Shown here: piece by piece, positions 1-64,000 of the stretch | Position numbering within the stretch: position 1 is the stretch's first letter | How the letters are laid out: the number at the start of each line of letters is the position of its first letter | Origin: Amoebidium appalachense | Lineage: Eukaryota > Protista > Ichthyosporea | Direction of reading: 5' to 3' | DNA length: 64,000 nt | Assembly (NCBI GenBank): GCA_963693365.1 | Contig: CAVNZM010000016.1 | Coordinates: 1,369,038-1,433,037, forward strand | Notes under the pieces: generated by a model | Seen by the model: only the letters and a program-made list of their open reading frames with translations | Databases searched by the model: none | What the model was told of the DNA's origin: nothing | Translations under genes and position numbers: made by a program

Positions 1-2612
1 TGAGGGTCGGCAGGCTGGACGGGCACGGGGGCAGGGGGGCCGGTGGGGGGGGGTGTCGGGGGAACGACGATGGCAGGAGGGGGGCCAGAGTACACCAGAC
101 AAACATCATCTTCAGTGTCAACTGTGGGGGGTGGGGTGGTCGAGGTAGCAGTGGTGTCGGGGGTCGGAAGGGTTGATGGAATGTCGGACGGGAGATAAGC
201 TGATTCGTCGAAAATCACATCACGGAAGAGGCCGACACGATGGGTGGTGGCATTGAAGATCCGGTGGCAGTGTGATTGAAGATCATAGCCGATATACATG
301 CCGAGTTTGACGGTGGGGGCCAGCTTGTTCCGTTTAGAGGCTGGCACGTGAGTGTAGGCAGGGCAACCGAACACTTTGAGCTCGGAGATGTCGGGCTTGA
401 CACCGTAGAAAACCTCGAATGGTGTACGACCATTGGCAGTCGTGGACGGGGTGACGTTGATGATGTAGGCGGCATGTTGGAGGGCCTCAGCCCACAGTTT
501 GGGAGACAGAGACTGATCTTGGACTTGATGGAGGAGGCAACGGACAATCTCTTGGAGGAACCGCATACGTCGTTCAACATAGCCGTTCAGTTGAGGGCAG
601 TCCACCGGAGCATAGCTGGCCTTGATGCCCTGGGAGAGGCAAAAAGCACGGGTATCCTTGGAGGTGAACTCAGAGCCGGAGTCGAAGTGGTAAACACCAA
701 CTTTGGAGGGGGCATGGGTGGCAACGAGGTTGGTGTGAGCTGTGAGAATATCCAGGGTGGTGGTACGGTCGGCCATCGGGTAGATCTTGACGAGGCCAGA
801 GGCACGGCAGACAGTGACGAGAGCAACCTTGGAACCTCCGTACGATGTTGTGGTAGGCTCAAAAAAATCCCAATGCCATTCATGACCGGGGATGTTGGAG
901 TGAGGACGGTCACCCCTGAACGGAGCCTTGGTGGTCTTACCCATAATGCAGCCATGACAATCAGGAACATCACAGTCGAGGACAGAGGAGGGGAGACCAA
1001 TAACAAGGTCGTGTTTCACCATGTCCTTGATGCTGGTCATAGCTCGGTGCCCCAGACGATGGTGCCAGATGGATGGGTTAACACTGGTAGTGGCAGCCAG
1101 AGCCACAGGACGAGTGGGTGGTTGAATGGTGTAGTCCTTGAAGTAATACAGACCGTTGTGTAGACGGAGGTTGACGAGATGACGGCCGGTGAGTCGGTCG
1201 AAGAGGAATGACGGAGTGGAGGCATCGTTCAAATCACCCTTGATGTATTCGGCAGCAGCTTGGGATGTTGAAATGAGGAAGGCTTGGCCAGACGGGGTGT
1301 AGTAGGCTTCAATGGTTAGGGTGGTAGTGCCATGGTCGGTGGTGGTGTTGATGACGATATGGCCGGTGTGAGTGGCCAAGACGGGGGTGCCATTGAAGGC
1401 AGCAACGGGAGTCGGTGTCGGAAGGGGAGTGAGGTCATGGAAGAACTCACGGGTGGGGCAAACAGTCATGTTGCACCCGGAATCCCAGGCAGGGTCGGAG
1501 GACACGGGGACGGAGCTAGCATTGTATGCCGAGAAAGCAAAGGAGACAGATTTCTCACTGCCTTGACGGGAACGGTTGTGTCTGGACATACGGCATTTCG
1601 GCTCAGGGCAATCGATGATCGTGTGATCAGGCTCGTGGCAGTAGGAGCATTCTTTCACGGACGGGGTGTTAGAACGAGCCGGGGAATCAGAACGACGGGA
1701 ACCCGAGAAACGGGAACGACTGGGGGAACGAGACGTGGACCGGAAGGCAGGCCGGTGGGGGGAACGGGATCGGGTGTGCTGACGGGAGAGACGAGTTCGG
1801 AGGTCCGTGCCAGAGGTACGGTCAAGTCGGGTGCGTAAGTCACGGCGAGGAAGATCACGGGGGGGAGCACTGGCATTTAATGCCATGCTGGACTTGGAGG
1901 CACGGTGGGCACGGTTGTTCCGGAGTTGCATCTTGAGGTCTTGACGTAACTCGATGCCCTTGACGTGGTTATGGAGGGACTCGAAGTCGGGGAATAGCTT
2001 ATCACCGAAGTGATAGTCTTCGATAAGACGATTGAACTCAGGGGTGAGGTCGTCTCTGGTGGTGAGTTCATTGAAGAACTTCTCAGCTAGACGAGTGAAG
2101 TGAATGGACTCATCTTGGAGAGACTGGAGCTGGTTCACGATGGTCTGCAGACGGCTCAGGTAGGTGGTGAATGATTCACCGGGCTGAAGGGCACAGGCAT
2201 CCCACTGACGGTGAAGGATGCGGATCTGATCGGGTTTGCCTTGGAGATAGTGTTGACGGAATTTCCACATGGCCCGTTCAGGGTCCATGCCAATACGGTA
2301 CTGGGCAACGGTGGTGAGGACGGAAGGGTCGATGTTCTGTATCATATGGAGCAGGAGGCAATTGCGGGCCTCTTTGAGTTCCGCGGTAGTGCCGTAGCCA
2401 TAGAAGGGGGGTTCACCGTCAACCGCGACGGTGGTAGGGGGGACGTAGTTGTCAGCAAGGACAACATCCACGAGTCGGACACCTTTAGTGCCGGTCATCA
2501 TGCCGAGAAAAATGATTTCCCATTGAAAATAGGTAGTTTTGCTATCGGGACCAGTCTTCCCTTCACCTTTCCACATGGTGATTTTGTTTACGCCAGTTTT
2601 GTTTGGATCCAT
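1..2612 (-). CDS. Copia Gag-Pol polyprotein (partial, 870 codons visible, no stop inside the window)
   Basis: Hand translation from ATG 2612 (MDPNKTGVNKITMWKG...): CCHC knuckle CSYCHEPDHTIIDC, protease WDSGCN, HHCC IWHHRLGH...CHGC, integrase core WHWDFF...HFDSGSEF...LNGYVERR, LWAEALQHAAYIIN, KVFGCPAY...GMYIGYD. It is missing from the ORF track, probably because it runs off the window edge. Confidence 0.93.
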   Translation of the reverse strand, partial: MDPNKTGVNKITMWKGEGKTGPDSKTTYFQWEIIFLGMMTGTKGVRLVDVVLADNYVPPTTVAVDGEPPFYGYGTTAELKEARNCLLLHMIQNIDPSVLTTVAQYRIGMDPERAMWKFRQHYLQGKPDQIRILHRQWDACALQPGESFTTYLSRLQTIVNQLQSLQDESIHFTRLAEKFFNELTTRDDLTPEFNRLIEDYHFGDKLFPDFESLHNHVKGIELRQDLKMQLRNNRAHRASKSSMALNASAPPRDLPRRDLRTRLDRTSGTDLRTRLSRQHTRSRSPHRPAFRSTSRSPSRSRFSGSRRSDSPARSNTPSVKECSYCHEPDHTIIDCPEPKCRMSRHNRSRQGSEKSVSFAFSAYNASSVPVSSDPAWDSGCNMTVCPTREFFHDLTPLPTPTPVAAFNGTPVLATHTGHIVINTTTDHGTTTLTIEAYYTPSGQAFLISTSQAAAEYIKGDLNDASTPSFLFDRLTGRHLVNLRLHNGLYYFKDYTIQPPTRPVALAATTSVNPSIWHHRLGHRAMTSIKDMVKHDLVIGLPSSVLDCDVPDCHGCIMGKTTKAPFRGDRPHSNIPGHEWHWDFFEPTTTSYGGSKVALVTVCRASGLVKIYPMADRTTTLDILTAHTNLVATHAPSKVGVYHFDSGSEFTSKDTRAFCLSQGIKASYAPVDCPQLNGYVERRMRFLQEIVRCLLHQVQDQSLSPKLWAEALQHAAYIINVTPSTTANGRTPFEVFYGVKPDISELKVFGCPAYTHVPASKRNKLAPTVKLGMYIGYDLQSHCHRIFNATTHRVGLFRDVIFDESAYLPSDIPSTLPTPDTTATSTTPPPTVDTEDDVCLVYSGPPPAIVVPPTPPPTGPPAPVPVQPADP

Positions 2613-2650
2613 GATTGAAAAACGAGCGCGAGTTCTAGATGTGTGTAGGG

Positions 2651-2674
2651 AGCGTGCAAAAGGGCTGCATAACC
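2651..2674 (-). promoter_or_regulatory. Primer-binding site complementary to the anticodon half of initiator tRNA-Met (imperfect, bipartite)
   Basis: Plus strand agcgtgc-aaaa-gggc-tg-cataacc abuts the LTR and matches tRNAiMet AGCGTGCTGGGCCCATAACC with interruptions; half-tRNA priming is known for Drosophila copia and yeast Ty5. Confidence 0.8.
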
Positions 2675-3609
2675 TGTTAAATTCTATAAGTATTTAGGAT
2701 GTAAGCAGAGACACAGTGGTGCAGTGTGAAAACACTACAGACACACACAACAACAAAACACGGAACGATCGGAGCAGTGTACACAACAGACATCAATGTT
2801 TAGACACGACTGAACTCAATTTATTTTGATCGCTAATAAATACCTGAAATTCCCTTAAGTTAAATCCATACATGATTTCCGACCAGTCGGAATTCAGATC
2901 TATGTCTAAAATAACCAATCATAATTAACTGATTATTTCCCGGATAGATCCGGAGACGCGGGAACACACACCATAGGTCACAGCTATAAGAAAGAAAAGA
3001 GGTGAAGAGTAACGAGGAAAGAGGTGGTGTTTCTAACCTATCATCGGCTACAAAGACTCAGACATTTTCTGACTAAGTCCACTGATTGGATATAGTACGG
3101 CAACACACAAAACAAAAGTGGTTGACTAAGCTATGAATCATACCTGACAAGCTAAAGTGTAACCTAAGTGTTTTTCTACCAATCAAAACATAACGAGTAA
3201 TATAAATCTACTCAACGTATATTAGTGAGAGAGAAATATAATTAAATGAAAGGAAACAAGAGAAGAAAGAAAGAGAAAAGAAAAGACGAAGAAAGAGGAA
3301 AAAGAAAAGAAAGCAGGACAGAAAACACGAACAGCAAAACACAGTTATAACCGAAGATATTCATGTACACATAACATGTACACGTGTCTCCCTCACTGGG
3401 TAGACTCGTGTACCTATAATCAGTTGCTGTAATCGATATCTAAACACACGAATATAGCCGACACAACACGATTACAAGTACTCAAATACACTGGAGATCG
3501 ATGTCATAATTTACGTACAAGGAGCACATCTTTTTCATTAAGTAAATGAATGAAAACATAACACGAACTGAGAAGATCTTACAATATGTAAATACTACGT
3601 ATTATAACA
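2675..3609 (-). repeat. 5' LTR (935 bp) of the copia element (family A)
   Basis: Plus strand TGTTAAATT...ATTATAACA; same length and near-identical to 54471-55405. Confidence 0.93.
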
Positions 3610-33481: not shown

Positions 33482-33603
33482 TCGCACACATCGATTCAAA
33501 TGTCGCTTTTTATTATCTGCTAATAAATAGTATCCTTCGCGCATCCACCCCTAAACCAGGCCATCCGTGGCCCTAAGGGCCGGGGAACACCCCCATCCAT
33601 GTC

Positions 33604-34788
33604 ATGGCACATGCCTATAATCGTTTCAGAACCTCTTTCAAAGTTCCATCTACACCCATCACACATGTGCGACCATTAAAACGTCCAGCAGATACACCTA
33701 CCACAGATGCACAACCAGAAAAACATCGCCTTAGACTAAGCGCAACACCTATTTACAATACACTACCCATTCAGAATAACACCACACCACTCCGTAGAAA
33801 CACAATAACAACCATGCCGAAACTTTCGGTTGATACAGTACTGGCAGAACTTGCCCTCGTTAAGAAACAGCTAAATGAGCTGTTACCACTCAAGAACATG
33901 ATAGAAAAACTCCAAACAGAAAATACCCAACTCAAGCTCACCATTGATTCACTCACAGCCCAGCTAAACATTAGTGGATCGCAAAACCCCAAAACTCATG
34001 AGCAAACATCTCGCGACGGAGACATTTCCACCCCAACACAAAACAACACAGGACCGGAAGCACAGCTCCCGGCAGAGATCCTAGAATATGCGAACTCTCG
34101 TAAAACACCCGAGCTCCGCCAAATTGCCAAGGAAACATATGCCAGCATTCTTGCAGGCAACGAGTACCGCCGCAACTCCCCTCCCAAACCGCCGGCTAAG
34201 GGGAACACCCAAGCAAACGGTAACATCAACATCCCACCCAAATACGAGAGGGTGTATTTCAAAGTCAAGCACGGCAGACGCCCACACAGGGCCATGTGGT
34301 CCATCTTCAAGGCTCTCGGCTTCCGGTGCTCTCGCATCCTTTGTCTGTCCTTCATTGGATACGATGTGCTGGAAGTAGCAGTACGGGGCGACTATAACCG
34401 TGCGTTCATCCGTGACGCGACAAAGGGGTGTGGAAGCTTCTTCACCCACCTCCCAAGCTACGACCCATGCGCGCCGGAAAACATTCAGAAAGCAGACAAA
34501 GAACGTAAAGTGTCTGCTAAGAATGCGTGCGCCACACGTTGTCGTGTACGCATCAGCAAGGCAAAAGAGTTCCTCGCAAAGTTGGAAAACGATGCTACGA
34601 GCGTGATAGACACGGACACGAAGGAACCAATGTTTTCTGGTGAGAAACTGCTCGAGCGCAAACGCCGATGCGAGATGGAAATCGAGCTCTTCTGCGAACT
34701 GTTCGCGCTGGCGGAAGGTCGTGCATACGACCCCGTAAGCGACAAGTGGGAACCAACCCCACAGGTGTCGGACCAAACCGATGCCTAA
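33604..34788 (+). CDS. LINE ORF1 protein (394 aa; coiled coil plus a possible RRM-like domain)
   Basis: Long non-repetitive ORF directly upstream of the RT ORF; heptad-like stretch LAELALVKKQLNELLPLKNMIEKLQTENTQLKLTIDSL. Confidence 0.85.
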   Translation: MAHAYNRFRTSFKVPSTPITHVRPLKRPADTPTTDAQPEKHRLRLSATPIYNTLPIQNNTTPLRRNTITTMPKLSVDTVLAELALVKKQLNELLPLKNMIEKLQTENTQLKLTIDSLTAQLNISGSQNPKTHEQTSRDGDISTPTQNNTGPEAQLPAEILEYANSRKTPELRQIAKETYASILAGNEYRRNSPPKPPAKGNTQANGNINIPPKYERVYFKVKHGRRPHRAMWSIFKALGFRCSRILCLSFIGYDVLEVAVRGDYNRAFIRDATKGCGSFFTHLPSYDPCAPENIQKADKERKVSAKNACATRCRVRISKAKEFLAKLENDATSVIDTDTKEPMFSGEKLLERKRRCEMEIELFCELFALAEGRAYDPVSDKWEPTPQVSDQTDA

Positions 34789-37700
34789 TTTATCCTTCTT
34801 CTTCTGGAATGCTCGGACACTGGGCCCCCAAAAGGGCCTCCCCCCCGGGACACTCGACGATAAAATCAGCTACATACAACAACAGACAAACAACCACACG
34901 TTTACAGTGATTTGCGAAACACAGTTTAAAAACCACCACAAATTCAACTCTACATTGGTCGACACATCCACACACCCCGGTTACGCGAAAAACCGAGGCA
35001 TTATTGTACTTGCCGCACCACACGTGAGAGTGAAGTGCAAACCGGTAGCAAAAACGGAATTCTCGGTTTCTATAGAGTTTCTTTCTAATGTTTTTACTTT
35101 TGTATATTACCCACCATCTATGTCGGTTGTCGAATTGACTCACGAGTTGTCACAGTTACCAATGTCCACTGTTATTTTAGGTGATTTTAACACGCGACTC
35201 CACCACACAGACACACTGCAAGTGAGTGTCGGGTACCCATCTAAGCCCCCGGAGCGTGCTATCCCTTTAGCAAGGTATGTCCAAAGTCACACTTTGCGGT
35301 TCCCTCAAATATCCCATGCCCACAACACCGACTGGGGAGTGGCCTTTTGGCCATCAACCATGTCAAAACTCTCTCTCCCTCCTAACCTCTCTAGGTCATC
35401 TGACCACTCTCCTATCCTTTTCCTACCTAAGATCTCCCTTGATCTGCTCCCCCCTCCCCCTCCCACCTTTCGCCTCCGTCTATCCCAGCTTAAGTCACAG
35501 TGGGGTAGAGTTGATGTATGTGTATGCTATGCTACGAAACACCCTATATATATGCGCCTATTAGAATCTGCACAAGCCAGGCCAGATTCACATCTCGTAC
35601 TAGATACATGCACTAACTTTATTGTTGATGATTTGATAGATCTCGGTGATTATGCTGGCGGTGGTAGGAAGGAATATCCCGATGCTCTCTTGTTACCAAA
35701 CACCACTCCCGCTAGACTAGGTGAACCCCTGTCTCAAAAGGAAAGCTTGCGCCGGCTTGCTAGTATGAATCGATTTGGCCCCCCTGCTCGTATTATTGGT
35801 GATACCACTGGAGACCCCCTCATAGACTCTGATAAGTATTTCTCGGAACTGTTTAAAGATAGGACCCCCGCTCAGAAACCTATTGTGTGGCCTGTAGACC
35901 CATCTATCCCCATAGAATCGATCCTCCCCTTTTTCAGTCCCGATGCCATATGGTCTGTGATATCTAGTTATAGCTCTAGTAAGTCTTGTGGACCTGATGG
36001 ACTCCCTGCTGGGTTTCTTAAAATCCTTGTTCCCTCCTACCCACAAAAGGAAAGTGATCGTGCTATTAAACCTGATCTTACTATCATGTTAAGCTCTCTC
36101 TTTTCTTGGTGTGTTAAATGTGGACATGTCCCGTCATCTTGGTTAGATACCTTAGTGATCCCCATAGTTAAGAAGGACTCTGAGGGCCCCATATCATCCT
36201 TTCGCCCCATTACACTAACCCAGGTTGTTCGTAGATTCTTTGAAGCTTGCTTACTTAGGTTATTTGCACATCACCCTAGGTTTCAATCTATTCTTCACAT
36301 ACACCCATGCCAATCCGCTTTTCGTAAAAACAATTCATGTTATGTTCAAATAATGGCACTGCACGATTCTATGCAAGTTGGTGCACAATATGTTGGCTTT
36401 ATTGATTGGAAAACTGCTTACGATTCTGTCTCCCCTGGTCTCCTATGGGAAAAGCTTGCTGCACGGGGTGTACCACACTGCATTGGTGTTCTGTTAGAAG
36501 CACTCTTGTCTCAAACCTATGGTAGAGCTGTGGTTAATGGGCATCTTTCATATGGTTTTGCTCGTACTAGAGGTCTCTTGCAGGGTTCATTGCTTAGCCC
36601 CTTTTTGTTTAACCTATTTATAGATGATTTGGCTGTCAAGATTTACGCCGAAAACGATGACCCTATTAATAACTTTCCGCCTGCACTTCTCTATGCTGAT
36701 GATCTGTCCCTCCTTGCCCGTACCCCTAGACGCCTGCAAAGATTGTTCGATGTAGTGTCAGAGTGGTGCAAGGCAAACCTTATGATCCTTAACATAGACA
36801 AATGTGGTGTTCTTGTACCTGATATAGCTAACAATTTACACACATTTACATTATCATCTAAACCTGTACCTATAGTTCCAGAATACAAATATCTTGGTGT
36901 TCCGGTTGATTCTGTTGGTGTTATGTTTCCCCATATGGTCGAAAAGAGGGTAGAGTTGGCTCGTAAGCGGTTAGCTTTCTTCTCGGCTAATATTTTTAAA
37001 GACACACCCCTCCATCCTTCTATTAGACTTACATTTATTCGCACTTTTGTCTTCCCGGCATGTGAATATGGTTTACCCCTTCTCGCCGCTTGGATCAAGA
37101 AAGAGAGAACTAGAGCGCTTAAACCCTTGGCAAATTTCCTTGAAGCAGAAGTTGCCTCCTTTCTATCTAACAACTGTTGTAAACCTGGGCCTGTAACGCT
37201 CTCGATATATGGTCTGGTCCCAATAGCTGCTAGAGTATCCTATCTCGCGCTGAAATTCAATAAGCACATAAGCCGCTTAAAGAAGTATTTGCCCTCCCAC
37301 CCTCTCTTCTCTATCCGACCTGTCCCCTCCTCACCTCTCCCCTCTTTCCTCCCCTCTCTCTCCCCTTCTCCCCTGGGCACAAATACAAATAAACCCCGCA
37401 ATAGTGTGTGTGTGACTTTGGACTGCCACTTACTTATTAAACATGTACACAATCACAAGATAATCACGCAATATAACAAATGGAAAAAGATACCACACGA
37501 CACTAGACCCGATGAAAGCATACACCTTGAAAAACTAAGCCTTATGTCTCGTTTTATATATACTGACCGCCTCAACCATATTGCCAAATATGGCACTCGC
37601 AAGTGTATAACACCTAAATACATATTACCTTCCTGTAGAACTGGTCTTTCTCTAGCTGATGGTATTATTGATCAATTACCACGCTTTTACTGTACACGTG

Positions 37701-37975
37701 CTATACAGTGGAGATCTAATAAGTATAAGGTGGCATCATTTGCATGCCCAAACAACACACACACACACCAGTTTAACCGGTCATGTATCGCCAAATGTAG
37801 TTTGATAGACCACATAATACCGCAACACACACACGTCACATTCACAACAGACACCCAGAAAGATAGCCTACCTGTAAATTACAACATCCTTGATTTTATA
37901 CTAAACACGCGTAACTACGACCTGTTTATTAGATGTATTGATTGGCTTGAGAAACACATCACTACAAAATTATAG
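34781..37975 (+). CDS. LINE ORF2: apurinic-like endonuclease plus reverse transcriptase (1064 aa)
   Basis: Endonuclease motifs WNAR, ICETQ, YYPP, ILGDFN, SDH; RT motifs KSCGPDG, FRPITL, QSAFR, FIDWKTAYDSV, GLLQGSLLSPFLFN, LYADD, YKYLG; C-terminal Cys cluster CPNN...FNRSCIAKC. Confidence 0.96.
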   Translation: MPNLSFFFWNARTLGPQKGLPPGTLDDKISYIQQQTNNHTFTVICETQFKNHHKFNSTLVDTSTHPGYAKNRGIIVLAAPHVRVKCKPVAKTEFSVSIEFLSNVFTFVYYPPSMSVVELTHELSQLPMSTVILGDFNTRLHHTDTLQVSVGYPSKPPERAIPLARYVQSHTLRFPQISHAHNTDWGVAFWPSTMSKLSLPPNLSRSSDHSPILFLPKISLDLLPPPPPTFRLRLSQLKSQWGRVDVCVCYATKHPIYMRLLESAQARPDSHLVLDTCTNFIVDDLIDLGDYAGGGRKEYPDALLLPNTTPARLGEPLSQKESLRRLASMNRFGPPARIIGDTTGDPLIDSDKYFSELFKDRTPAQKPIVWPVDPSIPIESILPFFSPDAIWSVISSYSSSKSCGPDGLPAGFLKILVPSYPQKESDRAIKPDLTIMLSSLFSWCVKCGHVPSSWLDTLVIPIVKKDSEGPISSFRPITLTQVVRRFFEACLLRLFAHHPRFQSILHIHPCQSAFRKNNSCYVQIMALHDSMQVGAQYVGFIDWKTAYDSVSPGLLWEKLAARGVPHCIGVLLEALLSQTYGRAVVNGHLSYGFARTRGLLQGSLLSPFLFNLFIDDLAVKIYAENDDPINNFPPALLYADDLSLLARTPRRLQRLFDVVSEWCKANLMILNIDKCGVLVPDIANNLHTFTLSSKPVPIVPEYKYLGVPVDSVGVMFPHMVEKRVELARKRLAFFSANIFKDTPLHPSIRLTFIRTFVFPACEYGLPLLAAWIKKERTRALKPLANFLEAEVASFLSNNCCKPGPVTLSIYGLVPIAARVSYLALKFNKHISRLKKYLPSHPLFSIRPVPSSPLPSFLPSLSPSPLGTNTNKPRNSVCVTLDCHLLIKHVHNHKIITQYNKWKKIPHDTRPDESIHLEKLSLMSRFIYTDRLNHIAKYGTRKCITPKYILPSCRTGLSLADGIIDQLPRFYCTRAIQWRSNKYKVASFACPNNTHTHQFNRSCIAKCSLIDHIIPQHTHVTFTTDTQKDSLPVNYNILDFILNTRNYDLFIRCIDWLEKHITTKL

Positions 37976-51598: not shown

Positions 51599-52475
51599 TT
51601 TACTTATTATATTGTTATTATTGATTAGAATTTCATCCATGATTAACATGAGAAAAGGAGGGACCACCTTTTGTGTATGCAAATATTCTTGCAGCAATCA
51701 TGTTAAATATAGATGTATTTTATATCTGTTCTTTAGTTTCAATGATTATAAGAGCCATCGCTGCCTTAAATCAATCTTATATCAAACGTCTTCTTGCATG
51801 TCCTACTATCAACTAACCGATGAGACAGAGTATGGAGAATTCCCTTTTCAACGTCAGTATAGATGTTACTGTGACGTAGATATACATCGAGTCACCACAG
51901 ACACGGAAGCCCCCCAGATCAATAAACATCACGATGTAAATGGGGCTTCCGGGACTTGGCGTCCTCAGTCTTTTCCTTGTCCAAAACATATTTCTTGTCA
52001 ACGAAAGCTGTGACCATCCGTCCCCAATCCGACTTTCATCCGTGTTCAAATTCATATTCCCATCACAATTCGATGTCGCATGGTAGCAAAAGAGGAAGGT
52101 CTCCCTCGGGGGTAACAAGGTACACACGCTTCCACACGCGCGCTCTGCTAGCATGCTACGAAAGCTCATTTTTACGGACGGATGGTCACAGCAGTCCACG
52201 GATAACTACGGATACACGAGGATGCATTTGCTTACTTATTCGGACGTCGCCCCGCAATGAGGCCATTTTTTTGAACAGCCATATCATTTTTTCTTATTGT
52301 AGCACACACAACTCGGTTTTCGCACCAGCCCATTTCTCATGAGCGCATCATCTTTTCCCATTTTCCACACACGACCACAGTGATCGGCAAGTTTTAGTCC
52401 TGATACTTTGTGCGTATAAGCAAAGCACGAGAAACGCCACCCCCGTGTGCTGCTAATCCCGCATAATGGGTGCCG

Positions 52476-54396
52476 TGTTGTAATACGTAGTATTTACATA
52501 TGGTAAGATCTTCTCAGTTTGTGTTATGTTTCAGTTCATATGCTTACGAAAGGAAGGCATCCTTGTACCCTGATTTGATTGGCCAGATCCTGGATCAATA
52601 AGTTGAAATAAACACGGCCGTATGTCCGTGCAATGTACTCTGATCATGTCTTATAACCACGTGTCTGGAGACCATGGGAAGCTCCCATGAGCCATCTATC
52701 TTACCAGAGGCATGTAAAAGATTACGAAGTTCTATTCCCGTAATTAGTGTAACACATATTTGCTAACATATTACGTCTTAAACAATGAACATATGTATAC
52801 GCGTGCACCTGTACGCGAAAGGCAATCTAATTTATGGAATGTTGTGAATGAGTGTGAGCGAATGAACAATCAATAGACTTAGCTATATATGGCGAAAAGC
52901 CATGAGCCAAGAGCCACGAGCCGCCGGCGAAAGATTGCCATGAGGCTTGTACTTATATTCTTACAGAGAGATGAAATCAATTAACAGAAGTGTGTAAATA
53001 ATTAACAATGATATAAGGCTGATATATATCTGTCATTCTAGAGAAATATGTAGTAACTTGTAATGTAAATATGCCCTGTACGTACTGTCTCTATATGATA
53101 AGTAGCTGTGAGCCGGATCCACTCATAAGGTCTTATAGGATGACATCATAGTGAGCAAAGAATAGATCGAATAGATTGATTGGTTAGATCTGTAGCCGCG
53201 CACTTTGTACATAGATGTCGGAACTCTTTTAACATGATATTTAGTGTAGCCAAGAGCGCTAGAAAGTATAAAAGGTAGTTAGAATTCATTAGTTAGAAAG
53301 GGTCTTTCCCCTTCTTAGCACATGGTCACAACTAAGGGAAATAACACGAATAGAATAGGCATTGCTTGTCTATGGTCATCACTATTGCCTGTAGGCCATC
53401 GTATTGATACAGTCACGTACAGTTCCCTCGTCACATCTACATTACGGCCAGGTTGCCACAGCTTATGAGCATCAATAAACGTCCAAGTATTCATAAATTG
53501 CCATACTTAGTGTGTAACAGACCGCCGTCCTCAACGCTTAGTGTAAATGCCACACTCCTATTATGTAAAGTGTAGCATCGATCTCCGATATGCTTGTATA
53601 CTTGTAATCGTGTTGTATCGGCTTTAATCGTGTGTTGTAATATCGATTAGAATATTTATATGTGTGTACACGGATCCACCCACTCAGGGAGAGACGTGTA
53701 CATGTTCGTGTGTACATAAATATCTCTGGTTATAGTTATGCTATTACTATCTTGTTTGTTGATCTGTGCTCTCTTTTCCTTTCTCTTTCTCCTTCCTTAT
53801 TTTCTTTTCTTTCTCTCCTTGTCTTCATGTGTATAATCGTATTTCTTTTCTACTAATATATGTTAGGTAGATTTGTGTTACTTAATACGTGTTCATTGGA
53901 CGGTAACACACTTAGGCTACACTTAGAATAGCATGTGTGTTTAGACTTCATTAATTTACTTTAGTTTCCATGTGTTGCCGGGCTTTAACCAATCATCAAG
54001 GTTAAGTGTGATATGTCTGAGTCTTTGCAGTATGTCATAGGTTAGAACTTCCTTGATGATGACACGAGTTGACCTTAACTAGTGTCTGTGTCCTATCGTG
54101 TACGTCTCCGCGTACCGGATCTCTCTGAAAGCAATTGGTTCTTAGTGATTGGTTTCTATTAGAGATAGATCTGATTTCCGACTGGTCGGAATTCATGTAT
54201 GGATTGGACTTAGAGGAATTTCAGGTATTTATTCGAAGATCAGAATAAATTCAGTCCAGTCGTGTCTAAACATTGATGTCTGTTGTGTACACTGCTCCGA
54301 TCGTTCCGTGTTTTGTTGTTGTGTGTGTCTGTGGACCGTTTTCACACTGCACCACTGTGTCTCTGCTTACATCCCAAATACTTATATAATTTAACA
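52476..54396 (+). mobile_element. Solo LTR, long (1921-bp) variant of copia family A, TSD TGCCG
   Basis: TGTTGTAATACG...AATTTAACA flanked by TGCCG at 52471-52475 and 54397-54401; both ends match the family A LTR, with about 1 kb extra at 52569-53564. Confidence 0.88.
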
Positions 54397-54414
54397 TGCC
54401 GGCCAGACACTAAG

Positions 54415-55405
54415 TGTTAAATTGTATAAGTATTTGGGATGCGCAGTGGAAGCGTGCTGGGCCCATAACCTGTTAAATTGTATAAGTATTTGGGATGTAA
54501 GCAGAGACACAGTGGTGCAGTGTGAAAACACCACAGACACACACAACAACAAAACACGGAAGGATCGGAGAAGTGTACACAACAGACATCAATGTTTAGA
54601 CACGACTGAACTCAATTTATTTTGATCGCTAATAAATACCTGAAATTCCCTTAAGTTAAATCCATACATGATTTCCGACCAGTCGGAAATCAGATCTATG
54701 TCTAAAATAACCAATCACAATTAACTGATTATTTCCCGGATAGATCCGGAGACGCGGGAACACACACCATAGGTCACAGCTATAAGAAAGAAAAGAGGTG
54801 AAGAGTAACGAGGAAAGAGGTGGTGTTTCTAACCTATCATCGGCTACAAAGACTCAGACATTTTCTGACTAAGTCCACTGATTGGATATAGTACGGCAAC
54901 ACACAAAACAAAAGTGGTTGACTAAGCTATGAATCATACCTGACAAGCTAAAGTGTAACCTAAGTGTTTTTTCTACCAATCAAAACATAACGAGTAATAT
55001 AAATCTACTCAACGTATATTAGTGAGAGAGAAATATAATTATGTGAAAGGAAACAAGAGAAGAAAGAAAGAGAAAAGAAAGAAGAAGAAAGAGGAAAAAG
55101 AAAAGAAAGCAGGACAGAAAACACGAACAGCAAAACACAGTTATAACCGAAGATATTCATGTACACATAACATGTACACGTGTCTCCCTCACTGGGTAGA
55201 CTCGTGTACCTATAATCAGTTGCTGTAATCGATATCTAAACACACGAATATAGCCGACACAACACGATTACAAGTACTCAAATACACTGGAGATCGATGT
55301 CATAGTTTACGTACAAGGAGCACATCTTTTTCACTAAGTAAATGAATGAAAACATAACACGAACTGAGAAGATCTTACAATATGTAAATACTACGTATTA
55401 CAACA
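54415..55405 (-). mobile_element. Aberrant copia family A insertion: full LTR + 30-nt tRNAiMet copy + duplicated 26-bp LTR terminus, TSD CTAAG
   Basis: LTR 54471-55405; tRNA segment 54441-54470; terminus duplicate 54415-54440; CTAAG at 54410-54414 and 55406-55410; the empty site is visible at 59156-59160. Confidence 0.92.
54441..54470 (+). other. Fragment of initiator tRNA-Met (10th to 39th nucleotide); not a tRNA gene
   Basis: GCGCAGTGGAAGCGTGCTGGGCCCATAACC is the D-arm plus anticodon arm of eukaryotic tRNAiMet (anticodon CAT); acceptor stem and T-arm are absent. Confidence 0.92.
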
Positions 55406-55777
55406 CTAAGCCCAGCACACGTTTGCCGGAGGTTGTGAGTCTCGGACTTTGCTTGTGCCCACACGGTGGTTAAGATCACTACCTGACGAACACTAGAGTC
55501 GTGTGTTTTCCTTCAGTCTGAACAGCAATGGTTTGCGCAATCTACGTGTATGTACCCAATCACGTTATATTTCAACATGTATATCCGAAAGATCTATGTC
55601 TGCTTCTCGCTCTTGCTCGCCTCTGCTTACATGTTTTGCTTTTATGTTTTGTACCCACGTGAGGTCATCCTCAGAGGCACTGCAGCCCGCCCACGTGTGG
55701 TTAGGGGATGGCTTGGAGGTTTGCCTGTCCCTGACATATACACTGTGACGCCCCCCCCCTACCCCTAGTATGCATCC

Positions 55778-58455
55778 TGTCGTGGCAACAAACAGAGTGT
55801 ATATACGAACTACTCTAACTATCTGCACGCTTAAAGGGGCTCGAAACCGTGTATACGTATAAACTTTTCTTTGAGTTGGGTGGGAAGCGAGAAAAACGAG
55901 TTCTTAGAAGAACTTCGAAAAGCCCGCGACCCCGCGAGACACTTCACAGACACGCGGCCCACTGGCCAGACAAATACCACAGTGACATTCAGCCAATCAC
56001 AACACTCCCTCCCCCACAGACTACACGCACTCCACACCATTGGCTACCGCGACCTCAGACACCCCTACAGCACTAGAACACGTACACACGTTTACTCACA
56101 ATACATATAAGCATACACACACGCGAGCAGGCAACATGGGTCTCGCCACGCACACAGCAAGAAGCAATACAACATTTAACATGGAGAGTACGCAGAGGCA
56201 TGGGGCATGCACGCGCGCACCAAACAATCAGCCGCCGCTGCATCAGATTCTCCCCATACCACTGATTAATCTCCTCATACCCCATTTAGACCCCGGCATC
56301 ACTATGCAAGAAAACCCCCGAAATTAACTCACCAAAACACAAAATATAGAAGCAAACTAATACGAATCAGCTCAGCACATGACAACTCCCCCCTCGCACA
56401 GAAAATAACTGAGTTCCACCTCAGTAAAAACTACCTAAAAACAAAATAAAGTTATGTGCTGAGCGACTACAACTACCGCTAACCATGCAGGAAGCAACAT
56501 ATAACATATAACATAAACATATACATGCATCCACGCACCACCCCAGCATGGTTAGTACCCAACCCAACCCCAAAACAAGGATAATATGAACCGCCACTGA
56601 CGTTGCCCTGTAGATGCACCTCTGCCCCCGTCCACAACCTGCACCCAAAACCCCATGCCCCTGGCACAATGTTATATCGAGTGGAACATAGCAACAGACA
56701 TGATGCCAGACGCCATCCATACAACCACACTCAGCATGCCCCATCCACAAAGAATTCCTAACACAACCAAACATGCCGTGACGAACACCTCCAGACTCAT
56801 GTGACGTACACCTCCAGACTCTCTTGCTGGCCATTCCTCTACCCGACAAAGACGCCTACTACGTAGGTCCCGGTGGTTTGGGAATGCCTCCGCCCCAACC
56901 GTGCCCTACCCAGCGGTGTGTCTAAGGCCTACTGCTGCACTGGGCACCACAACACTACTCAACAACACTACGGGCAGCCACTGCAAAGGGCCTCAACACC
57001 AGGCCCAGGGCAGCCACTCCAAGGGGCCTCAGCACCAGGCCCTTTGACGACGGGGGTTCACAACAGTGGGGGCCTGCCACTGCCATGACTACACTTCGAC
57101 CCCCCCCCAGCCCCCTCGTCAGAGGGCCGAGCTCCCAAACAGCAGCAGGACTTTCTATTCCACTGACCCTAACCACACACGTCGCCAACACAGGACTCAT
57201 ACACACGTCGAAAACGCCAGGCACCAGTAGAAAACCCAGCGAAAAATAACAATACACAACTCTCATACAACAACAACAACCCAAGAGACGGCCTACCCCC
57301 TAATAAAACCTTCATACCAGCAACACGGTCACCGACGTCCCTGCCCCCCACGACGGGGCTGTTTACACCACGCGTTGCCCCCGCTCCTTGCAGTTGTCGC
57401 AGGTGCCTGGGAAAGAGCCTGGCGCCGGCTCTTGCTGTCCCGCCCAAAGACGCCAGCCTGGCCCATCTGTTATCCCGTTGTGGCCGTGGCTGGTAGGGCT
57501 GGTAGCGCCGTGGGGAGGGTGACCGCCGCCGGTCCCTTCTGAGGCCTCTGCTGGGCAAACGGCCCTGAGCTTGCTAAGTCACCTAGGGAGGTCAAGGTCC
57601 TTAGCGAGGACTAAGTCCCCTGTGATACTAGTCCTACTGCTCATGTTGCCTATGCCAACTGTTGCTAGCTGTAGGTCCGTGTGTGCGTATGTTTCTTCTA
57701 CCTCTAACCGGCGAAAAAGTCCTAAGTCAAAACCACTCATAACCGCTAGTCCTGAAAAAAAAAACTAGGGGTGAAAGCAACAGCCCAGAAGGACTAACAG
57801 TGCGTGTGCCCCCTCCCTGCAAAAAACTGCAGAGAAAGGGGGTGTAGCTTGTCGTAGCTACAAACAGAGTGTATACAAACTACTCTAACTATCTGCACGC
57901 TTAAAGGGGCTCGAAACCGTGTATACGTATAAACTTTTCTTTGAGTTGGGTGGGAAGCGAGAAAAACGAGTTCTTAGAAGAACTTCGAAAAGCCCGCGAC
58001 CCCGCGAGACACTTCACAGACACGCGGCCCACTGGCCAGACAAATACCACAGTGACATTCAGCCAATCACAACACTCCCTCCCCCCACAGACTACACGCA
58101 CTCCACACCATTGGCTACCGCGACCTCAGACACCCCTACAGCACTAGAACACGTACACACGTTTACTCACAATACATATAAGCATACACACACGCGAGCA
58201 GGCAACATGGGTCTCGCCACGCACACAGCAAGAAGCAATACAACATTTAACATGGAGAGTACGCAGAGGCATGGGGCATGCACGCGCGCACCAAACAATC
58301 AGCCGCCGCTGCATCAGATTCTCCCCATACCACTGATTAATCTCCTCATACCCCATTTAGACCCCGGCATCACTATGCAAGAAAACCCCCGAAATTAACT
58401 CACCAAAACACAAAATATAGAAGCAAACTAATACGAATCAGCTCAGCACATGACA
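55778..58455 (-). mobile_element. Non-autonomous LTR retroelement (family C, 2678 bp) with two ~606-bp LTRs and a gag remnant, TSD CATCC
   Basis: LTRs 55778-56384 and 57850-58455 (TG..CA); CATCC at 55773-55777 and 58456-58460; minus-strand polypurine tract GCGAGGGGGGAGT at 56385-56397; broken gag-like frame with FPGTCDNCKERG; no pol. Confidence 0.9.
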
Positions 58456-58541
58456 CATCCACATGCTTATATGTTTGCACCCACGTACTAGCCTTATCCA
58501 TGTGTGAGGACACACACTATCCTTCTCTTGTGCGCTTAACA

Positions 58542-59608
58542 TGTGACGTAGATATACATCGAGTCACCCCAGACACGGAAGCCCCCCAGATCAATAAACA
58601 TCACGATGTAAATGGGGCTTCCGGGACCTGGCGTCATCAGTCTTTTCCTTGTCCAAAACATAGTTCTTGTCAACGAAAGCTGTGACCATCCGTTCCCCAT
58701 CCGACTTTCATCCGTGTTCAAATTCATATTCTCATCACATTTCGATGTCGCATGGTAGCAGAGACGGAAGGTCTCCCTCGGGGTGTAACCAGGTAAACAC
58801 GCTTCCACACGCGCGCTCTACTAGCGTGCTACGATAGCTCATTTTTACGGGCGGATGGTCACAGCAGTCCACGGATAACTACGGATACACGAGGATGCAT
58901 TTGCTTACTTATTCGGACGTCGCCCCGCAATGAGGCCATTTTTTGCAACAACCATATCATTTTTCATAATGTAGCACACACAACTCGGTTTTCGCACCAG
59001 CCCATTTCTCATGAGCGCATCATCTTTTCCCATTTTCCACACACGACCACAGTGATCGGCAAGTTTTGGTCCTGATACTTTGTGCGTATAAGCAAAGCAC
59101 GAGAAACGCCACCCCCGTGTGCTGCTAATCCCGCATAATGGGTGCCGGCCAGACACTAAGCCCAGCACACGTTTGCCGGAGGTTGTGAGTCTCGGACTTT
59201 GCTTGTGCCCACACGTTGGTTAAGATCACTACCTGACGAACACTAGAGTCGTGTGTTTTCCTTCAGTCTGAACAGCCGTCGTTTGCGCAAACTACGTGTA
59301 TATACCCAATCACGTTATATTTCAACATGTACATCCGAAAGATCTATGTCTGCTTCTCGCTCTTGCTCGCCTCTGCTTACATGTTTTGCTTTTATGTTTT
59401 GTACCCACGTGAGGTCATCCTCAGAGGCACTGCAGCCCGCCCACGTGTGGTTAGGGGATGGCTTGGAGGTTTGCCTGTCCCTGACATATACACTGTGACG
59501 CCCCCCCCCTACCCCTAGTATGCATCCACATGCTTATATGTTTGCACCCACGTACTAGCCTTATCCATGTGTGAGGACACACACTATCCTTCTCTTGTGC
59601 GCTTAACA
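58542..59608. mobile_element. Family B 1067-bp TG..CA unit, copy 2 (uninterrupted)
   Basis: Abuts copies 1 and 3 directly at ...TTAACA|TGTGAC... junctions. Confidence 0.88.
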
Positions 59609-60601
59609 TGTGACGTAGATATACATCGAGTCACCCCAGACACGGAAGCCCCCCAGATCAATAAACATCACGATGTAAATGGGGCTTCCGGGACCTGGCG
59701 TCCTCAGTCTTTTCCTTGTCCAAAACATATTTCTTGTCAACGAAAGCTGTGACCATCCGTCCCCCATCCGACTTTCATCCGTGTTCAAATTCATATTCCC
59801 ATCACTTTTCGCTTCCATGGCTTCCGTGTCTGGGGTGACGAAAACGAAAAAGGCAAACCTCCAAGCCATCCCCTAACCACACGTGGGCGAGAAGCAGACA
59901 TAGATCTTCCGGATGTACATGTTGAAATATATCATGATTGGGTATATACACGTAGGTTGCGCAAACGACGGCTGTTCAGACTGAAGGAAAACACACGACT
60001 CTAGTGATCGTCAGGTAGTGATCTTAACCACCGTGTGGGCACAAGCAAAGTCCGAGACTCACACCCTCCGGCAAACGTGTGCTGGGCTTAGTGTCTGGCC
60101 GGCACCCATTATGCGGGATTAGCAGCACACGGGGGTGGCGTTTCTCGTGCTTTGCTTATACGCACAAAGTATCAGGACCAAAACTTGCCGATCACTGCGG
60201 TCGTGTGTGGAAAATGGGAAAAGATGATGCGCTCATGAGAAATGGGCTGGTGTGAAAACCAAGTTGTGTGTGCTACAATATGAAAAATGATATCATAATG
60301 GCTGTTGCAAAAAAAATGGCCTCATTGCGAGGCGACGTCCGAATAGGTAAGCAAATGCATCCTCGTGTATCCGTAGTTATCCGTGGACTGCTGTGACCAT
60401 CCGTCCGTAAAAATGAGCTATCGTAGCATGCTAGCAGAGCGCACGTGTGGAAGCGTGTTTACCTGGTTACCCCCGAGGGAGACCTTCCTTTTCTGCTACC
60501 ATGCGACATCGAAATGTGATGGGAACATGAATTTGAACATGGATGAAAGTCGGATGGGGGACGGAAGGTCACAGCTTTCGTTGACAAGAACTATGTTTTG
60601 G
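59609..60601. repeat. Family B copy 3 (first ~200 bp) fused to an inverted, deleted family B copy
   Basis: 59609-59811 is direct; 59820-59839, 59851-59889 and 59890-60601 are reverse complements of separate parts of the unit. Confidence 0.85.
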
Positions 60602-60860: not shown

Positions 60861-60981
60861 ACGACAGTTTTTAGCAGATCAGTAAGCTACAAACACACTG
60901 GCATCTTCTGTGTTGAGCACCTACAGCCCTCACAGCTACATTTTCTTTTCATTCTCCCTATCTTTCCCTACGCTGGTCAGC

Positions 60982-62144
60982 ATGCCGCCGAAAAAGCCCC
61001 AGGCCTCAGCCACCGCCCCTGCCGCAGCACCTAAGCGCCTGACCTGCAGCGACCTCCGTAACAGGCTGCCCAACGCTCCCGCGGGCACTGACGCGCCTCC
61101 GGAGACCCATACCACCACGGACCCTCCGGCTACTCTCCCCTCTACCCCTGAAGTCCCTCCTCAGGCCCCGCCGCCCCCGACGGTGACTTCTCAGGACGCC
61201 GTCCTTGCCGCCCTCACCGCCCTCAGCACCCAGATGGCCGGCGTCCTGGCCGCTCTCACCAACCGCGACCGTCCCGCGCCCCCAGCCGCGCCCTCCGCAC
61301 CTGGGGTGGTTTTCCCGGGGCTGCATCTCGGCCCTGACCTGGACCTACCTGCCCTGCCCGTGCCCCCCATTACAGGTGAGAACACTGGCGACATTCAGCC
61401 AGGCACACTGCCGCTTCCCCCGCGAATGTGCTGGCAGGTTTGCGCGCCAATCGCTTCGTCGACCTGTATAAGTTCACCCCCACAGCCCTGCTGGCCCCAT
61501 CCAAGAAAGGTCAGCAGCTGCGCATGGCCGACGACGGCAGCATCGAGACTTTTCGCACTGACAAACCTGTTCCCCTGCGTTCCCTCGTCATTTGGATCCA
61601 AGCTTGGGCCCATTACATGGCCGCCAAGCACCACCTCGACCTCCCCACTGACAAGGACGTACTTTGGACTCAGCACATCACTCGCCTCAGCACCCGATAC
61701 CCGTGGGCCCAGATCCACAACTACGACGTGTACGCCCGTACAGTTGCCCACCAGTAGGGTCGGGCTCCGATCGAGTGTCCCAACCTGCTCGCCCAACTCC
61801 ACCAGGATCTCCTCCTGCCACCCACTCTGCCCATCCCGGACGCATGCCAGCGCTGTGGCTTCCCCGACCACCCCAGCGCGACCTGTCCCATGTACCCCAA
61901 GCCCGGCTGTGGTCTTGATGGCTTCAAGCCGCCCCACAAGCCCGGCGGGGGGCAAACCCCCAACCGCCCTGGCCCGCAACCCGGCCCGGCAAGACCGGCC
62001 CGACCCATGGATCTACCCGCAACGCACTGCAGGAAATTCCACATTAACGGTCGATCCTGCGCTAAGCAGCCCTGCCCCTTCTCCCACGTGTACCCGCTCT
62101 GCTCTGGCACACCCCCCCGCAAAGACTGCAAGCACAATGCCTAG
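60982..62144 (+). pseudogene. Ngaro-type gag-like ORF with a frame change (~61376-61437) and an in-frame TAG (61755-61757)
   Basis: MPPKK start; NRFVDL, WIQAWAHY, YPWAQIHNYD; CCHC CQRCGFPDHPSATC; C-terminal HCRKFH...C...CPFSHV..LC...DC zinc-finger cluster. Confidence 0.75.
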
Positions 62145-62441
62145 TCTACGCGCACACCCACACACACAGATAGAACATAGGGGCTAGGAGCTAGGATACA
62201 CGGCACGGGTACAAGGAAACGGAGCTCGGGAGCACGGGCCACTAGGGCTGAGTAGAAATTTTTGCAGGCCAACTACGGCGCCCGCGCGCGCCAAGAATAA
62301 ATGTCCGTACAAAAAGACGTTATTCTGGCCACTGCACATAATTTTACTCCCCCCCCATCCCACGAGCATCCCCCCCTTACACTCTCACCTAGCACTCCCT
62401 CCCCCCCCTTCTTCTAACTCTGTGTCCGCCCGCACCCCCGC

Positions 62442-63304
62442 GTGCTCGGGCATCCCCTGCACAGGGCCCCGCTGCCCTCCCTGCAACCCTCCCTCGGGCC
62501 CAGCTGCCGTACTCTAACCCCCCGGGGCCTTGCTGCCTCCCCCCCCCCCCCCCCCCCCCCCCCGCTGCCGGCATCTCCCCGAGGGTGCCCCACCCTTGCT
62601 AACCACACCTTCCCCCGAGGCTCAGACCCGGAGGCCCGCCCCCTGCCCCAGCACCACATTGACACCTCCCGCCTCCGGGAGCTGCTGGCCTCCTACCCAG
62701 ACCAATCATTCGCCGCGCAGCTCCTCCACGATGTTGAATTCGGTGTCGACATCGGATATCGCGGCCTCTCCACCTCTCGGGTGGGCCCCAACCTACCCAC
62801 CACCCCGGATACAGCTGCCGCTATCACGGCGGATATTGCCAAAGAAGTCGCCCTCGGCCACCTGCGCGGCCCCCTCTCCCCGGACCAATTCTTTGCCGAA
62901 TTTCCGGTCCACCGTTCCTCCCCCATCGGGGCCGTTACTAAAAAAGGGAACCCCTCCAAGTACCGTCGAATCCACCACCTCTCATGGCCCCGGGGCAGCA
63001 GTGTCAATGACAGCATCACCTACCCCGACGAACTTCAGTACATTCGAGCCCGGGACGTCACCCAGCTCATTCTCGACGCAGGCCCCGGCTGCTACATGGC
63101 CGTAGCAGACGTGCAGGCTGCCTTCCGGCACATGCCCATCCGACCAGAAGACCATCACTTAATGGCATTCAAATGGCAGGGGCATTTTTACGTTGACACC
63201 AGACTGCCCTTCAGCCTGAAATCTAGCCCAGCCATCTGGGAACGGATCGCGGCCACCCTCTAGTGGCTGGCACACCAGCACGGTGTTGTTGGAGTACACT
63301 GGTA
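62442..63304 (+). pseudogene. DIRS/Ngaro-type reverse transcriptase, N-terminal part, with a premature TAG and truncation before YxDD
   Basis: FGVDIGY, KEVALGHLRGP, SSPIGAVTKK, KYRRIHHLSWP-GSSVND, ADVQAAFRHMPI, DTRLPFSLKSSP; the frame continues past TAG 63261-63263 as WLAHQHGVVGVHWY and then breaks. Confidence 0.88.
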
Positions 63305-64000
63305 CTCCCGGCTAGCAATGTCTGTTAGAGAAAGTTTCTGATCAATTGAATAATTGTTTCAACACTCACTCGAGTGCATAGAACTTTTGTTTACGGTCAT
63401 ATTCATATATGGTAGTTATATGTTTGAGCCAAAACTGTACCAATGACGAGCTTCACTAGCAACGTGCTAATTGTGCTCATTAATTAATATTCCCGGTTCA
63501 GATGATGTCATGTCTATATTTGCCACAGGATTCTATTCTTAGAGTGGTAGTGTGCTTTATTCCCGGATATTCTCAGAATATTTTTAGTTGTGTGAAGTAA
63601 GATTTACGTTTAACTGCAATTGGTGTGTTAAACACGTTTATTTGTGTGCTTTAGTGCAAGTTAACTAGCCACTCAACGTGCACAGTTAACTTTTATATCT
63701 TTAACGACTTGTTTTCATTGTGCTCTCTTTTCGGCCATGCTGTACATGGCCCACCACCAGGGTGCACACGAGGCCACCATGAGGTGGCCAACGACTATAT
63801 AAAGCAGTGCCTCTCATGTCACAAACATGGGAAGCAGAACGTTTGATTTACACTTTTCTACTGTCGTTTTCAGTGCACAAAACACATAGACTAGTTACCC
63901 ATCATACACGACACTATGTCTGACAACTTACAGTTGCAGCAACTAGTCCAACTACTGGAGCAGAGGTTGGCCTCACAAGATGCAATCATTTCCCACCTCA
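63305..64000 (+). mobile_element. Start of an unidentified insertion (probable DNA transposon) with a TATA box and an ORF from 63916 running off the window
   Basis: Abrupt switch from GC-rich RT to AT-rich sequence at TA|CTCCCGGCTAGCA; hairpin GGCCACC-atga-GGTGGCC at ~63772-63789; TATATAAA at 63796; ORF MSDNLQLQQLVQLLEQRLASQDAIISHL. Confidence 0.5.

What the first reader, a model, noticed from the sequence alone, without database searches (positions are those of the whole stretch)
54410..55410. Integrated fossil of plus-strand strong-stop DNA: an LTR carrying a perfect 30-nt copy of its tRNA primer that stops just before G9
Seen: between two CTAAG target-site duplications lies (minus strand) a full 935-bp LTR, then the exact complement of tRNAiMet nucleotides 39 to 10, then a second copy of the last 26-27 bp of the LTR ending in CA. 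The PBS of the coding element of the same family (2651-2674) matches the tRNA only imperfectly, so this 30-mer is not that PBS. Known: Drosophila copia and yeast Ty5 prime from the anticodon half of tRNAiMet, and eukaryotic tRNAiMet carries m1G9, which blocks Watson-Crick pairing. Inference: RT copied the half-tRNA primer until m1G9, jumped at a 1-nt microhomology back onto U5 and regenerated an integrase-competent end. The result is a solo-LTR look-alike made by reverse transcription rather than recombination, and it records both the primer's 3' end and a tRNA modification site in genomic DNA.
Basis: partly seen in the sequence, partly recalled or inferred. Interest (0 to 1): 0.78.

Follow-up and report, generated by a model that had tools for sequence, protein, structure and literature searches.

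The report
Integrated copia strong-stop DNA, half-tRNA primer
A lone retrotransposon end repeat sits in the genome with a perfect 30-base copy of half of the initiator tRNA and a short second copy of its own tail, likely a misfired reverse-transcription intermediate that was inserted anyway; this kind of error is known from HIV and yeast, but here it marks where copying of a cut tRNA primer likely stops.

Summary
The structure is real: 5-bp duplication, 935-bp copia LTR, exact complement of tRNAiMet nucleotides 39 to 10 (40 to 10 in standard numbering), the LTR's own last 26 bases, duplication again. Two empty copies of the target in the window confirm the duplication, and a read contig spans the odd junction. 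One part needs correcting. The perfect tRNA copy is not special to this locus. LTR ends followed by it stand at about 19 times the junction's depth in one run, and an unrelated copia element with an open gag-protease frame (L056) carries the same 30-mer as its primer site, also ending at nucleotide 10. So the G9 boundary looks like a general footprint of half-tRNA priming, and these elements likely inherit the primer sequence at times, unlike Ty1. m1G9 in this host is inferred, not tested. Integrated strong-stop products with tRNA copies are known from HIV-1 and Ty1, so this is a new variant of a known kind. Interest 0.45.

The parts
54410..54414 (.). 5-bp target-site duplication, U5 side
   Evidence: single copy in two empty sites
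54415..54440 (-). second copy of the last 26 bases of the LTR, ending in CA; carries this LTR's own bases at the two positions where the coding element's LTR differs
54441..54470 (-). exact complement of tRNAiMet sequential nucleotides 39 to 10 (standard 40 to 10)
54471..55405 (-). complete 935-bp copia LTR (family A), TG...CA
54500..54506 (-). 7-base U5 box complementary to tRNAiMet nucleotides 1-7, three bases before the point where the tail begins; role unproven
   Evidence: not paired in the cofold
55406..55410 (.). 5-bp target-site duplication, U3 side
2675..3609 (-). 5' LTR of the coding family-A element, 15 differences from the solo copy
2643..2674 (-). degenerate half-tRNA primer site of the coding element (7 exact bases, then bulges; 3'-terminal part mismatched to a perfect primer copy)
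3..2612 (-). gag-protease-integrase part of a Ty1/copia polyprotein, running off the window before RT
52476..54396 (+). related 1921-bp solo LTR (family B) with its own TGCCG duplication, inserted 13 bases from the family-A site in the same target repeat
59156..59160 (+). empty copy of the target site

Best explanation
The insertion is one copia LTR followed by an exact 30-base copy of the 5' half of tRNAiMet and the LTR's own last 26 bases between 5-bp duplications, and it is likely a plus-strand strong-stop DNA that missed its normal second transfer and was integrated as a mini-element. Inferred steps: (1) a tRNAiMet half ending at standard nucleotide 40 primed the minus strand; (2) plus-strand synthesis copied U3-R-U5 and then the attached primer down to nucleotide 10, stopping at G9, probably because of m1G9; (3) this perfect copy mismatches the family's common primer site at its 3' end, so it could not be extended in register; (4) the free end joined U5 26 bases from its end through 1 matching base, or 2 if the next A was added without template or opposite m1G9, either by the plus strand jumping to the minus strand or by a short nascent minus strand clamping onto it; (5) the product has two TG...CA ends and integrase inserted it. 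Shown: the structure, the duplication, the register, multi-copy perfect junctions, a fold-back junction centred on nucleotides 10-13. Inferred: all five steps.
For: The left breakpoint is exactly the end of the primer copy and the right one lies in the last 26 bases; a random deletion would do both about 4-6 times in a million (my own simple model). The primer end matches the hemivirus start at nucleotide 40 (PMC1181622). In human tRNAiMet G9 is virtually fully m1G, and the other marks listed between 10 and 39 are m2G10, m2G26 and t6A37, with m2G not detectable by RT methods (PMC7293042). An unrelated copia stops at the same nucleotide (L056). Contigs in runs X1 and X3 hold an inverted junction centred on the GCGC at nucleotides 10-13, letter for letter what two free strong-stop ends would give by priming each other. 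A 102-base X1 contig spans 54368-54469 with no difference. Precedents: tRNA inserts at deletion junctions of HIV-1 proviruses (PMC12657518); a Ty1 dead-end strong-stop end joined to foreign DNA and inserted (PMC2939329); two-base clamping by retroviral and Tf1 RTs (PMC3035444). Ty1 integrase accepts TG...CA-ended fragments with 5-bp duplications.
Against: One event only; no second LTR-tRNA-U5-tail copy was seen. Perfect primer copies follow LTR ends at about 19 times the junction's depth in X1 (950 against 50.9), and one X1 contig of another LTR family runs on for at least 255 bases after a 29-base copy, so longer parents with a perfect site likely exist and deletion from one is possible. Only 1 templated base of microhomology, whereas clamping needs 2. 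Host tRNA gene, Trm10 and m1G9 not seen (no genome). X1 may be the sample behind the assembly. The fold-back contig is 43 bases and does not show what lies beyond it.
Confidence: 0.72

Rival explanations
1. A full-length family-A element that carried a perfect 30-base primer site integrated here and later lost everything from the end of that site to the last 26 bases of its 3' LTR by an ordinary DNA deletion.
For: Perfect primer copies follow LTR-A-type ends in X1, X3 and X15 and in coding element L056; the tail equals the LTR's own end, as two LTRs of one insertion would; 1-base microhomology fits end joining.
Against: Both breakpoints would have to hit functional boundaries by chance (about 4-6 in a million); the imperfect site is roughly 4 to 5 times commoner by summed depth (rough).
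Confidence: 0.1
2. A normal solo LTR was already in place; a break in U5, 26 bases from its end, was patched with a free strong-stop DNA as template. The 30-mer is still a strong-stop fossil, but integrase never handled this molecule.
For: Gives exactly the same sequence; a plain solo LTR lies 13 bases away; capture of Ty1 cDNA at breaks is known (recalled, no call); scan note e1-7808317 reads a similar case this way.
Against: Needs three separate events at a young site (flanks 99% identical to the empty copy; junction absent from X3).
Confidence: 0.09
3. The origin is as in the best explanation, but the stop at nucleotide 10 is not due to m1G9: the primer fragment is itself trimmed to start at nucleotide 10, or RT stalls where tRNA nucleotides 1-7 are held by the U5 box. 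(This concerns the cause of the stop and is scored apart from the origin rivals.)
For: Host modification untested; one X1 contig stops at nucleotide 11; a U5 box complementary to nucleotides 1-7 is kept in all 3 LTRs of the window.
Against: L056 has no such box (longest match 4) yet stops at the same base; m1G9 is near complete in human tRNAiMet; the box did not pair in the cofold.
Confidence: 0.2
4. A LINE-type RT inserted a cDNA of a tRNA half into a solo LTR, the 26-base tail being its target duplication.
For: A LINE-like ORF with an RT domain lies at 34739-37975.
Against: The copy sits in the exact place, strand and register of a primer site, and the same LTR-tRNA joint is multi-copy.
Confidence: 0.03
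5. Assembly artefact.
For: Multi-copy LTR; no contig bridges the whole locus.
Against: A 102-base contig covers neighbour LTR end, duplication, tail and 29 of the 30 bases without difference; duplication agrees with two empty sites.
Confidence: 0.02

Closest known systems
HIV-1 defective proviruses from delayed (aberrant) second-strand transfer (PMC12657518; passages read)
   Same: Integrated product with LTR, a DNA copy of the primer tRNA at the junction, then a jump to a downstream place on the minus strand.
   Different: There the primer is a whole tRNA-Lys3 and RT reads past m1A58 (inserts of 7-54 bases). Here the primer is a 5' half, the copy stops at the predicted block, and all internal sequence is lost.
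Ty1/Ty3 dead-end plus-strand strong-stop DNA and Ty1 composite insertion MK44 (PMC5371799 section 2 read; PMC2939329 passages)
   Same: First strong-stop DNA carries a tRNA copy longer or other than the genomic primer site, cannot transfer normally, and can be joined to other DNA and inserted.
   Different: 12-base copy of the acceptor stem; laboratory event with foreign DNA. Ty1 and Ty3 do not inherit the primer sequence, whereas the multi-copy perfect sites seen here suggest this family sometimes does.
Hemivirus-type half-tRNA priming: copia, 1731, Ty5, Osser; plant Osser, Bryco, Gymco-II (PMC1181622, PMC6317226; passages)
   Same: Ty1/copia domain order; primer site abuts the LTR and starts at tRNAiMet nucleotide 40.
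   Different: A 30-base site bounded by G9 was not found described in the searches made; the common family site here is bulged.
Perfect versus common primer sites in mouse ETn/MusD/IAP (PMC7472051; passages)
   Same: A mismatched common site coexists with perfect sites thought to arise by copying the tRNA.
   Different: 18-base sites for whole tRNAs in retroviral elements, not a half-tRNA copia.
Recombination-derived solo LTR
   Same: One LTR between 5-bp duplications.
   Different: A solo LTR from LTR-LTR recombination keeps no primer site and no second U5 end.

Membership tests
Ty1/copia LTR retrotransposon (parent family A) | integrase upstream of RT, copia-type gag-pre-integrase, protease and SH3 domains | tested here: met
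   Pol_BBD, gag_pre-integrs, rve, SH3 in order, directly after gag; 42 homologues, 41 with copia-type domain sets. RT itself lies outside the window.
Ty1/copia LTR retrotransposon (parent family A) | TG...CA LTR and 5-bp target duplication | tested here: met
Hemivirus-type (half-tRNA primed) | primer site complementary to tRNAiMet from nucleotide 40 back through the anticodon arm | tested here: met
   (tRNA taken from metagenome locus L003, not from the host)
Hemivirus-type (half-tRNA primed) | priming by a cleaved tRNA shown biochemically | not testable with these tools
   needs particles or cDNA ends
Hemivirus genus | placement by RT phylogeny | not tested
   RT is not in the window
Aberrant second-strand-transfer product | tRNA-derived sequence at the junction that differs from the common genomic primer site | tested here: met
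   30 exact bases against 7 in the coding copy; weakened by multi-copy perfect sites
Aberrant second-strand-transfer product | junction at the plus-strand stop site set by a Watson-Crick-face methylation | tested here: inconclusive
   junction lies just before G9; the modification is shown for human tRNAiMet only
Aberrant second-strand-transfer product | the joined form exists before integration | not testable with these tools
   sequence cannot separate this from repair capture
Recombination-derived solo LTR | duplication directly abuts both LTR ends | tested here: not met
   56 extra bases lie between the LTR and the duplication

The most novel reading that the evidence does not exclude
In half-tRNA-primed copia elements m1G9 plays the part that m1A58 plays in retroviruses: it fixes a 30-base plus-strand primer copy. 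Unlike Ty1 and Ty3, these elements sometimes transfer and inherit that copy, which resets a degenerate primer site to a perfect one, while failed transfers give integrated solo-LTR look-alikes and two-headed LTR palindromes. Genomes would then hold a countable record of tRNA cleavage at nucleotide 40 and methylation at G9, and some 'solo LTRs' would not come from recombination.
Probability: 0.45. Interest if true: 0.65.

Novelty: new variant of a known kind. Interest (0 to 1): 0.45.

Why it matters
How half-tRNA-primed elements finish plus-strand synthesis was not found in the open papers searched. This locus and the read data give a sharp, testable answer: the primer is copied from nucleotide 40 to 10 and the copy can be inherited or can misjoin. 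It also shows that a TSD-flanked single LTR can arise without recombination, which matters for solo-to-full-length ratios if such copies prove common. As a single insertion it has no known function.

Tried and rejected
No whole genome is held, so family-wide counts and the host tRNA gene could not be had. ARAGORN found no tRNA gene in the window; Rfam on 54300-54600 gave only sub-threshold hairpin matches, caused mostly by the two facing LTR ends. Patterns for the LTR end plus primer copy or the primer copy alone found 0 stretches in viral contigs and 0 in prokaryote genomes. Related loci for the window's polyprotein and for L056 were not found in viral contigs; alignment A1 was too divergent to search. 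Run X10 gave no contig on the junction stretch, which proves nothing. The U5 box for tRNA nucleotides 1-7 did not pair in an RNA cofold. tRNA-guided target choice, prompted by a 9-base match beside the duplication, was set aside: 0.8% of window stretches match as well, the look was post hoc, and the coding element's flank has only 5. An integrase-made joint at the CA that spans the junction was considered and judged less likely than template switching, since the acceptor also has CA there. Ke 1999 (Ty5) and Pulsinelli and Temin 1991 are not held; only their titles were seen. Scan look-ups by place, by sequence and by the first word set returned nothing.

Full report
Observation. On the minus strand the window reads: duplication CTAAG (55406-55410 on the plus strand), a 935-bp LTR (55405-54471), 30 bases (54470-54441), 26 bases equal to the LTR's own end (54440-54415), and CTAAG again (54410-54414). 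The LTR differs at 15 alignment columns from the 5' LTR (3609-2675) of an element whose ORF holds copia-type protease, gag-pre-integrase, integrase and SH3 domains in that order. At the two positions in the tail where solo and coding LTRs differ, the tail follows the solo LTR. The target is a repeat that occurs twice more in the window without insertion and with one CTAAG; the flanks differ from the first empty copy at 1 of 100 bases on each side. So the duplication is real and the insertion young.

Identity of the 30-mer. A scan of 16 of 64 parts of the metagenome collection gave 127 loci. In the 126 loci laid as files there were 137 exact matches; 136 continue into the tRNA 3' half and 133 have G in front (overlapping loci repeat some genes). 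In a 72-nt tRNA-Met(CAT) gene from L003 the 30-mer is sequential positions 10-39 with the anticodon at 33, that is 10-40 in standard numbering, which fits the hemivirus start from nucleotide 40 (PMC1181622, passages).

Read support. Of 22 listed runs 20 hold part of the locus. In X1 a 102-base contig covers 54368-54469 with no difference at depth 50.9. X1 may be the source sample, so this checks the assembly, not recurrence. In X3 depth is 0 over 54420-54437 and a different contig takes 54440-54470, which suggests the insertion is absent there; the tool warns that holes prove nothing.

The perfect primer copy is not unique. A contig that joins nucleotides 11-39 to the TGT of an LTR end has depth 950 in X1, 18.7 times the junction contig, and 195 in X3; family A/B-like ends with a perfect copy have depths 277 and 155 in X1, and exact family-A ends with a perfect copy appear in X3 and X15 (18 of 44 laid pieces were shown). 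One X1 loose end shows at least 255 further bases after a 29-base copy, apparently on an LTR of another family. The bulged site of the coding element is still the commoner one: it appears as a loose end in 8, 9 and 1 contigs of X1, X3 and X11 and by summed depth is about 4 to 5 times more abundant (summed depth is a rough measure and unintegrated cDNA may add to it). The one non-tRNA match among 137, L056, is an unrelated copia element with an open gag-protease frame whose primer site is the same perfect 30-mer, again ending at nucleotide 10. The search demanded all 30 bases, so it could not find shorter sites, but it could have found longer ones. The coding element's own site is a degenerate form of the same box, mismatched in its last bases.

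A second product. Contigs in X1 and X3 (two studies) carry an inverted junction centred on the GCGC at nucleotides 10-13; it equals, letter for letter, the joint predicted if two 3' ends stopping at nucleotide 10 pair through GCGC and extend. The contig is 43 bases, so it does not show LTRs on both sides, and library fold-back is not excluded.

Mechanism. Inferred: plus-strand synthesis copies the attached half tRNA to the first blocking base. In human tRNAiMet G9 is virtually fully m1G and the marks between 10 and 39 are m2G10, m2G26 and t6A37 (PMC7293042, passages); m1G gives RT stops and mismatches (PMC5066629 and PMC8062790, passages). A perfect copy cannot extend in register on the bulged site, like the dead-end first strong-stop DNA of Ty1 and Ty3 (PMC5371799, section 2 read). 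The free end joined U5 26 bases from the end. Templated microhomology is 1 base; if the following A was added without template it is 2, the minimum for RT clamping shown for retroviral and Tf1 enzymes (PMC3035444, abstract and section 15; PMC8363836, passages). Which strand jumped cannot be told. The result ends TG...CA on both sides, which is enough for Ty1 integrase to insert with a 5-bp duplication (PMC2939329, passages).

Rivals. Deletion from a full-length element with a perfect site is now possible in principle, but both breakpoints would have to fall on functional borders, about 4-6 in a million under a uniform model. Repair of a broken solo LTR with free strong-stop DNA gives the same letters and cannot be excluded by sequence; it needs three events at a young site. 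A LINE-made tRNA insertion does not explain the register. The cause of the stop (m1G9, a trimmed primer, or structure) is a separate question; I put m1G9 at about 0.75.

Comparison with what is known. HIV-1 proviruses with tRNA inserts at the deletion joint from delayed second-strand transfer are described (44 sequences; PMC12657518, passages). Ty1 event MK44 joined a 12-base tRNA-complementary dead end to foreign DNA in an inserted composite. Mouse ERVs show perfect and common primer sites, with reversion ascribed to copying the tRNA, and the same review states that Ty1 and Ty3 strictly inherit their own site (PMC7472051, passages). Half-tRNA priming is known for about 2% of plant elements (PMC6317226, passages). 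PMC7197481 and PMC9278108 (passages) added background only. Ten searches showed no paper on a 30-base half-tRNA site bounded by G9 or on an LTR-tRNA-U5-tail insertion; I read listings only for most hits, and the primary copia and Ty5 papers are not held, so this absence is weak. No supplements were read. Unchecked notes of this scan describe similar fossils in other genomes, one of them with a tRNAiMet half; they are leads, not support, but they suggest the class is common.

Verdict. Observation confirmed; interpretation mostly right, with the uniqueness claim corrected. A new variant of a known kind of reverse-transcription error. The wider point, that half-tRNA copia elements likely copy and sometimes inherit a 30-base primer sequence bounded by G9, is more interesting than the single locus. 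Interest 0.45.

Noticed in passing
window 52471-55410: Two related copia LTRs inserted in opposite orientation 13 bases apart (8-base spacer between duplications) in one terminal repeat of another retroelement; possible hot spot.
   Followed up: partly
window 55410-55418 and 59160-59168: The target next to the duplication has a 9-base match to the primer-site sequence; 0.8% of 35-base stretches in the window do as well; absent at the coding element's flank.
   Followed up: partly
window 54500-54506, and the same place in the LTRs at 2675-3609 and 52476-54396: 7-base U5 box complementary to tRNAiMet nucleotides 1-7, three bases before the tail's start; 0.9% of shuffles; not paired in cofold.
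   Followed up: partly
L056:1036-1065: Unrelated copia element with an open gag-protease frame and a perfect 30-base half-tRNA primer site ending at nucleotide 10.
   Followed up: yes
runs X1 and X3, laid on window 54440-54470: Inverted junction centred on tRNA nucleotides 10-13; may mark two-headed LTR palindromes in the genome.
   Followed up: partly
window 52476-54396: Family-B solo LTR is 1921 bp: it shares the first 71 and last about 860 bases with LTR A and has about 1 kb of extra sequence without internal repeats.
   Followed up: partly
window 51870-60601 and ORFs 60886-64000: Nested direct and inverted repeats and an RT-like ORF that look like DIRS/Ngaro-type elements (label from recall; only a weak RVT_1 hit).
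   Followed up: no
window 33577-37975: LINE-like element with two long ORFs, the second 1078 codons with an RT domain.
   Followed up: no
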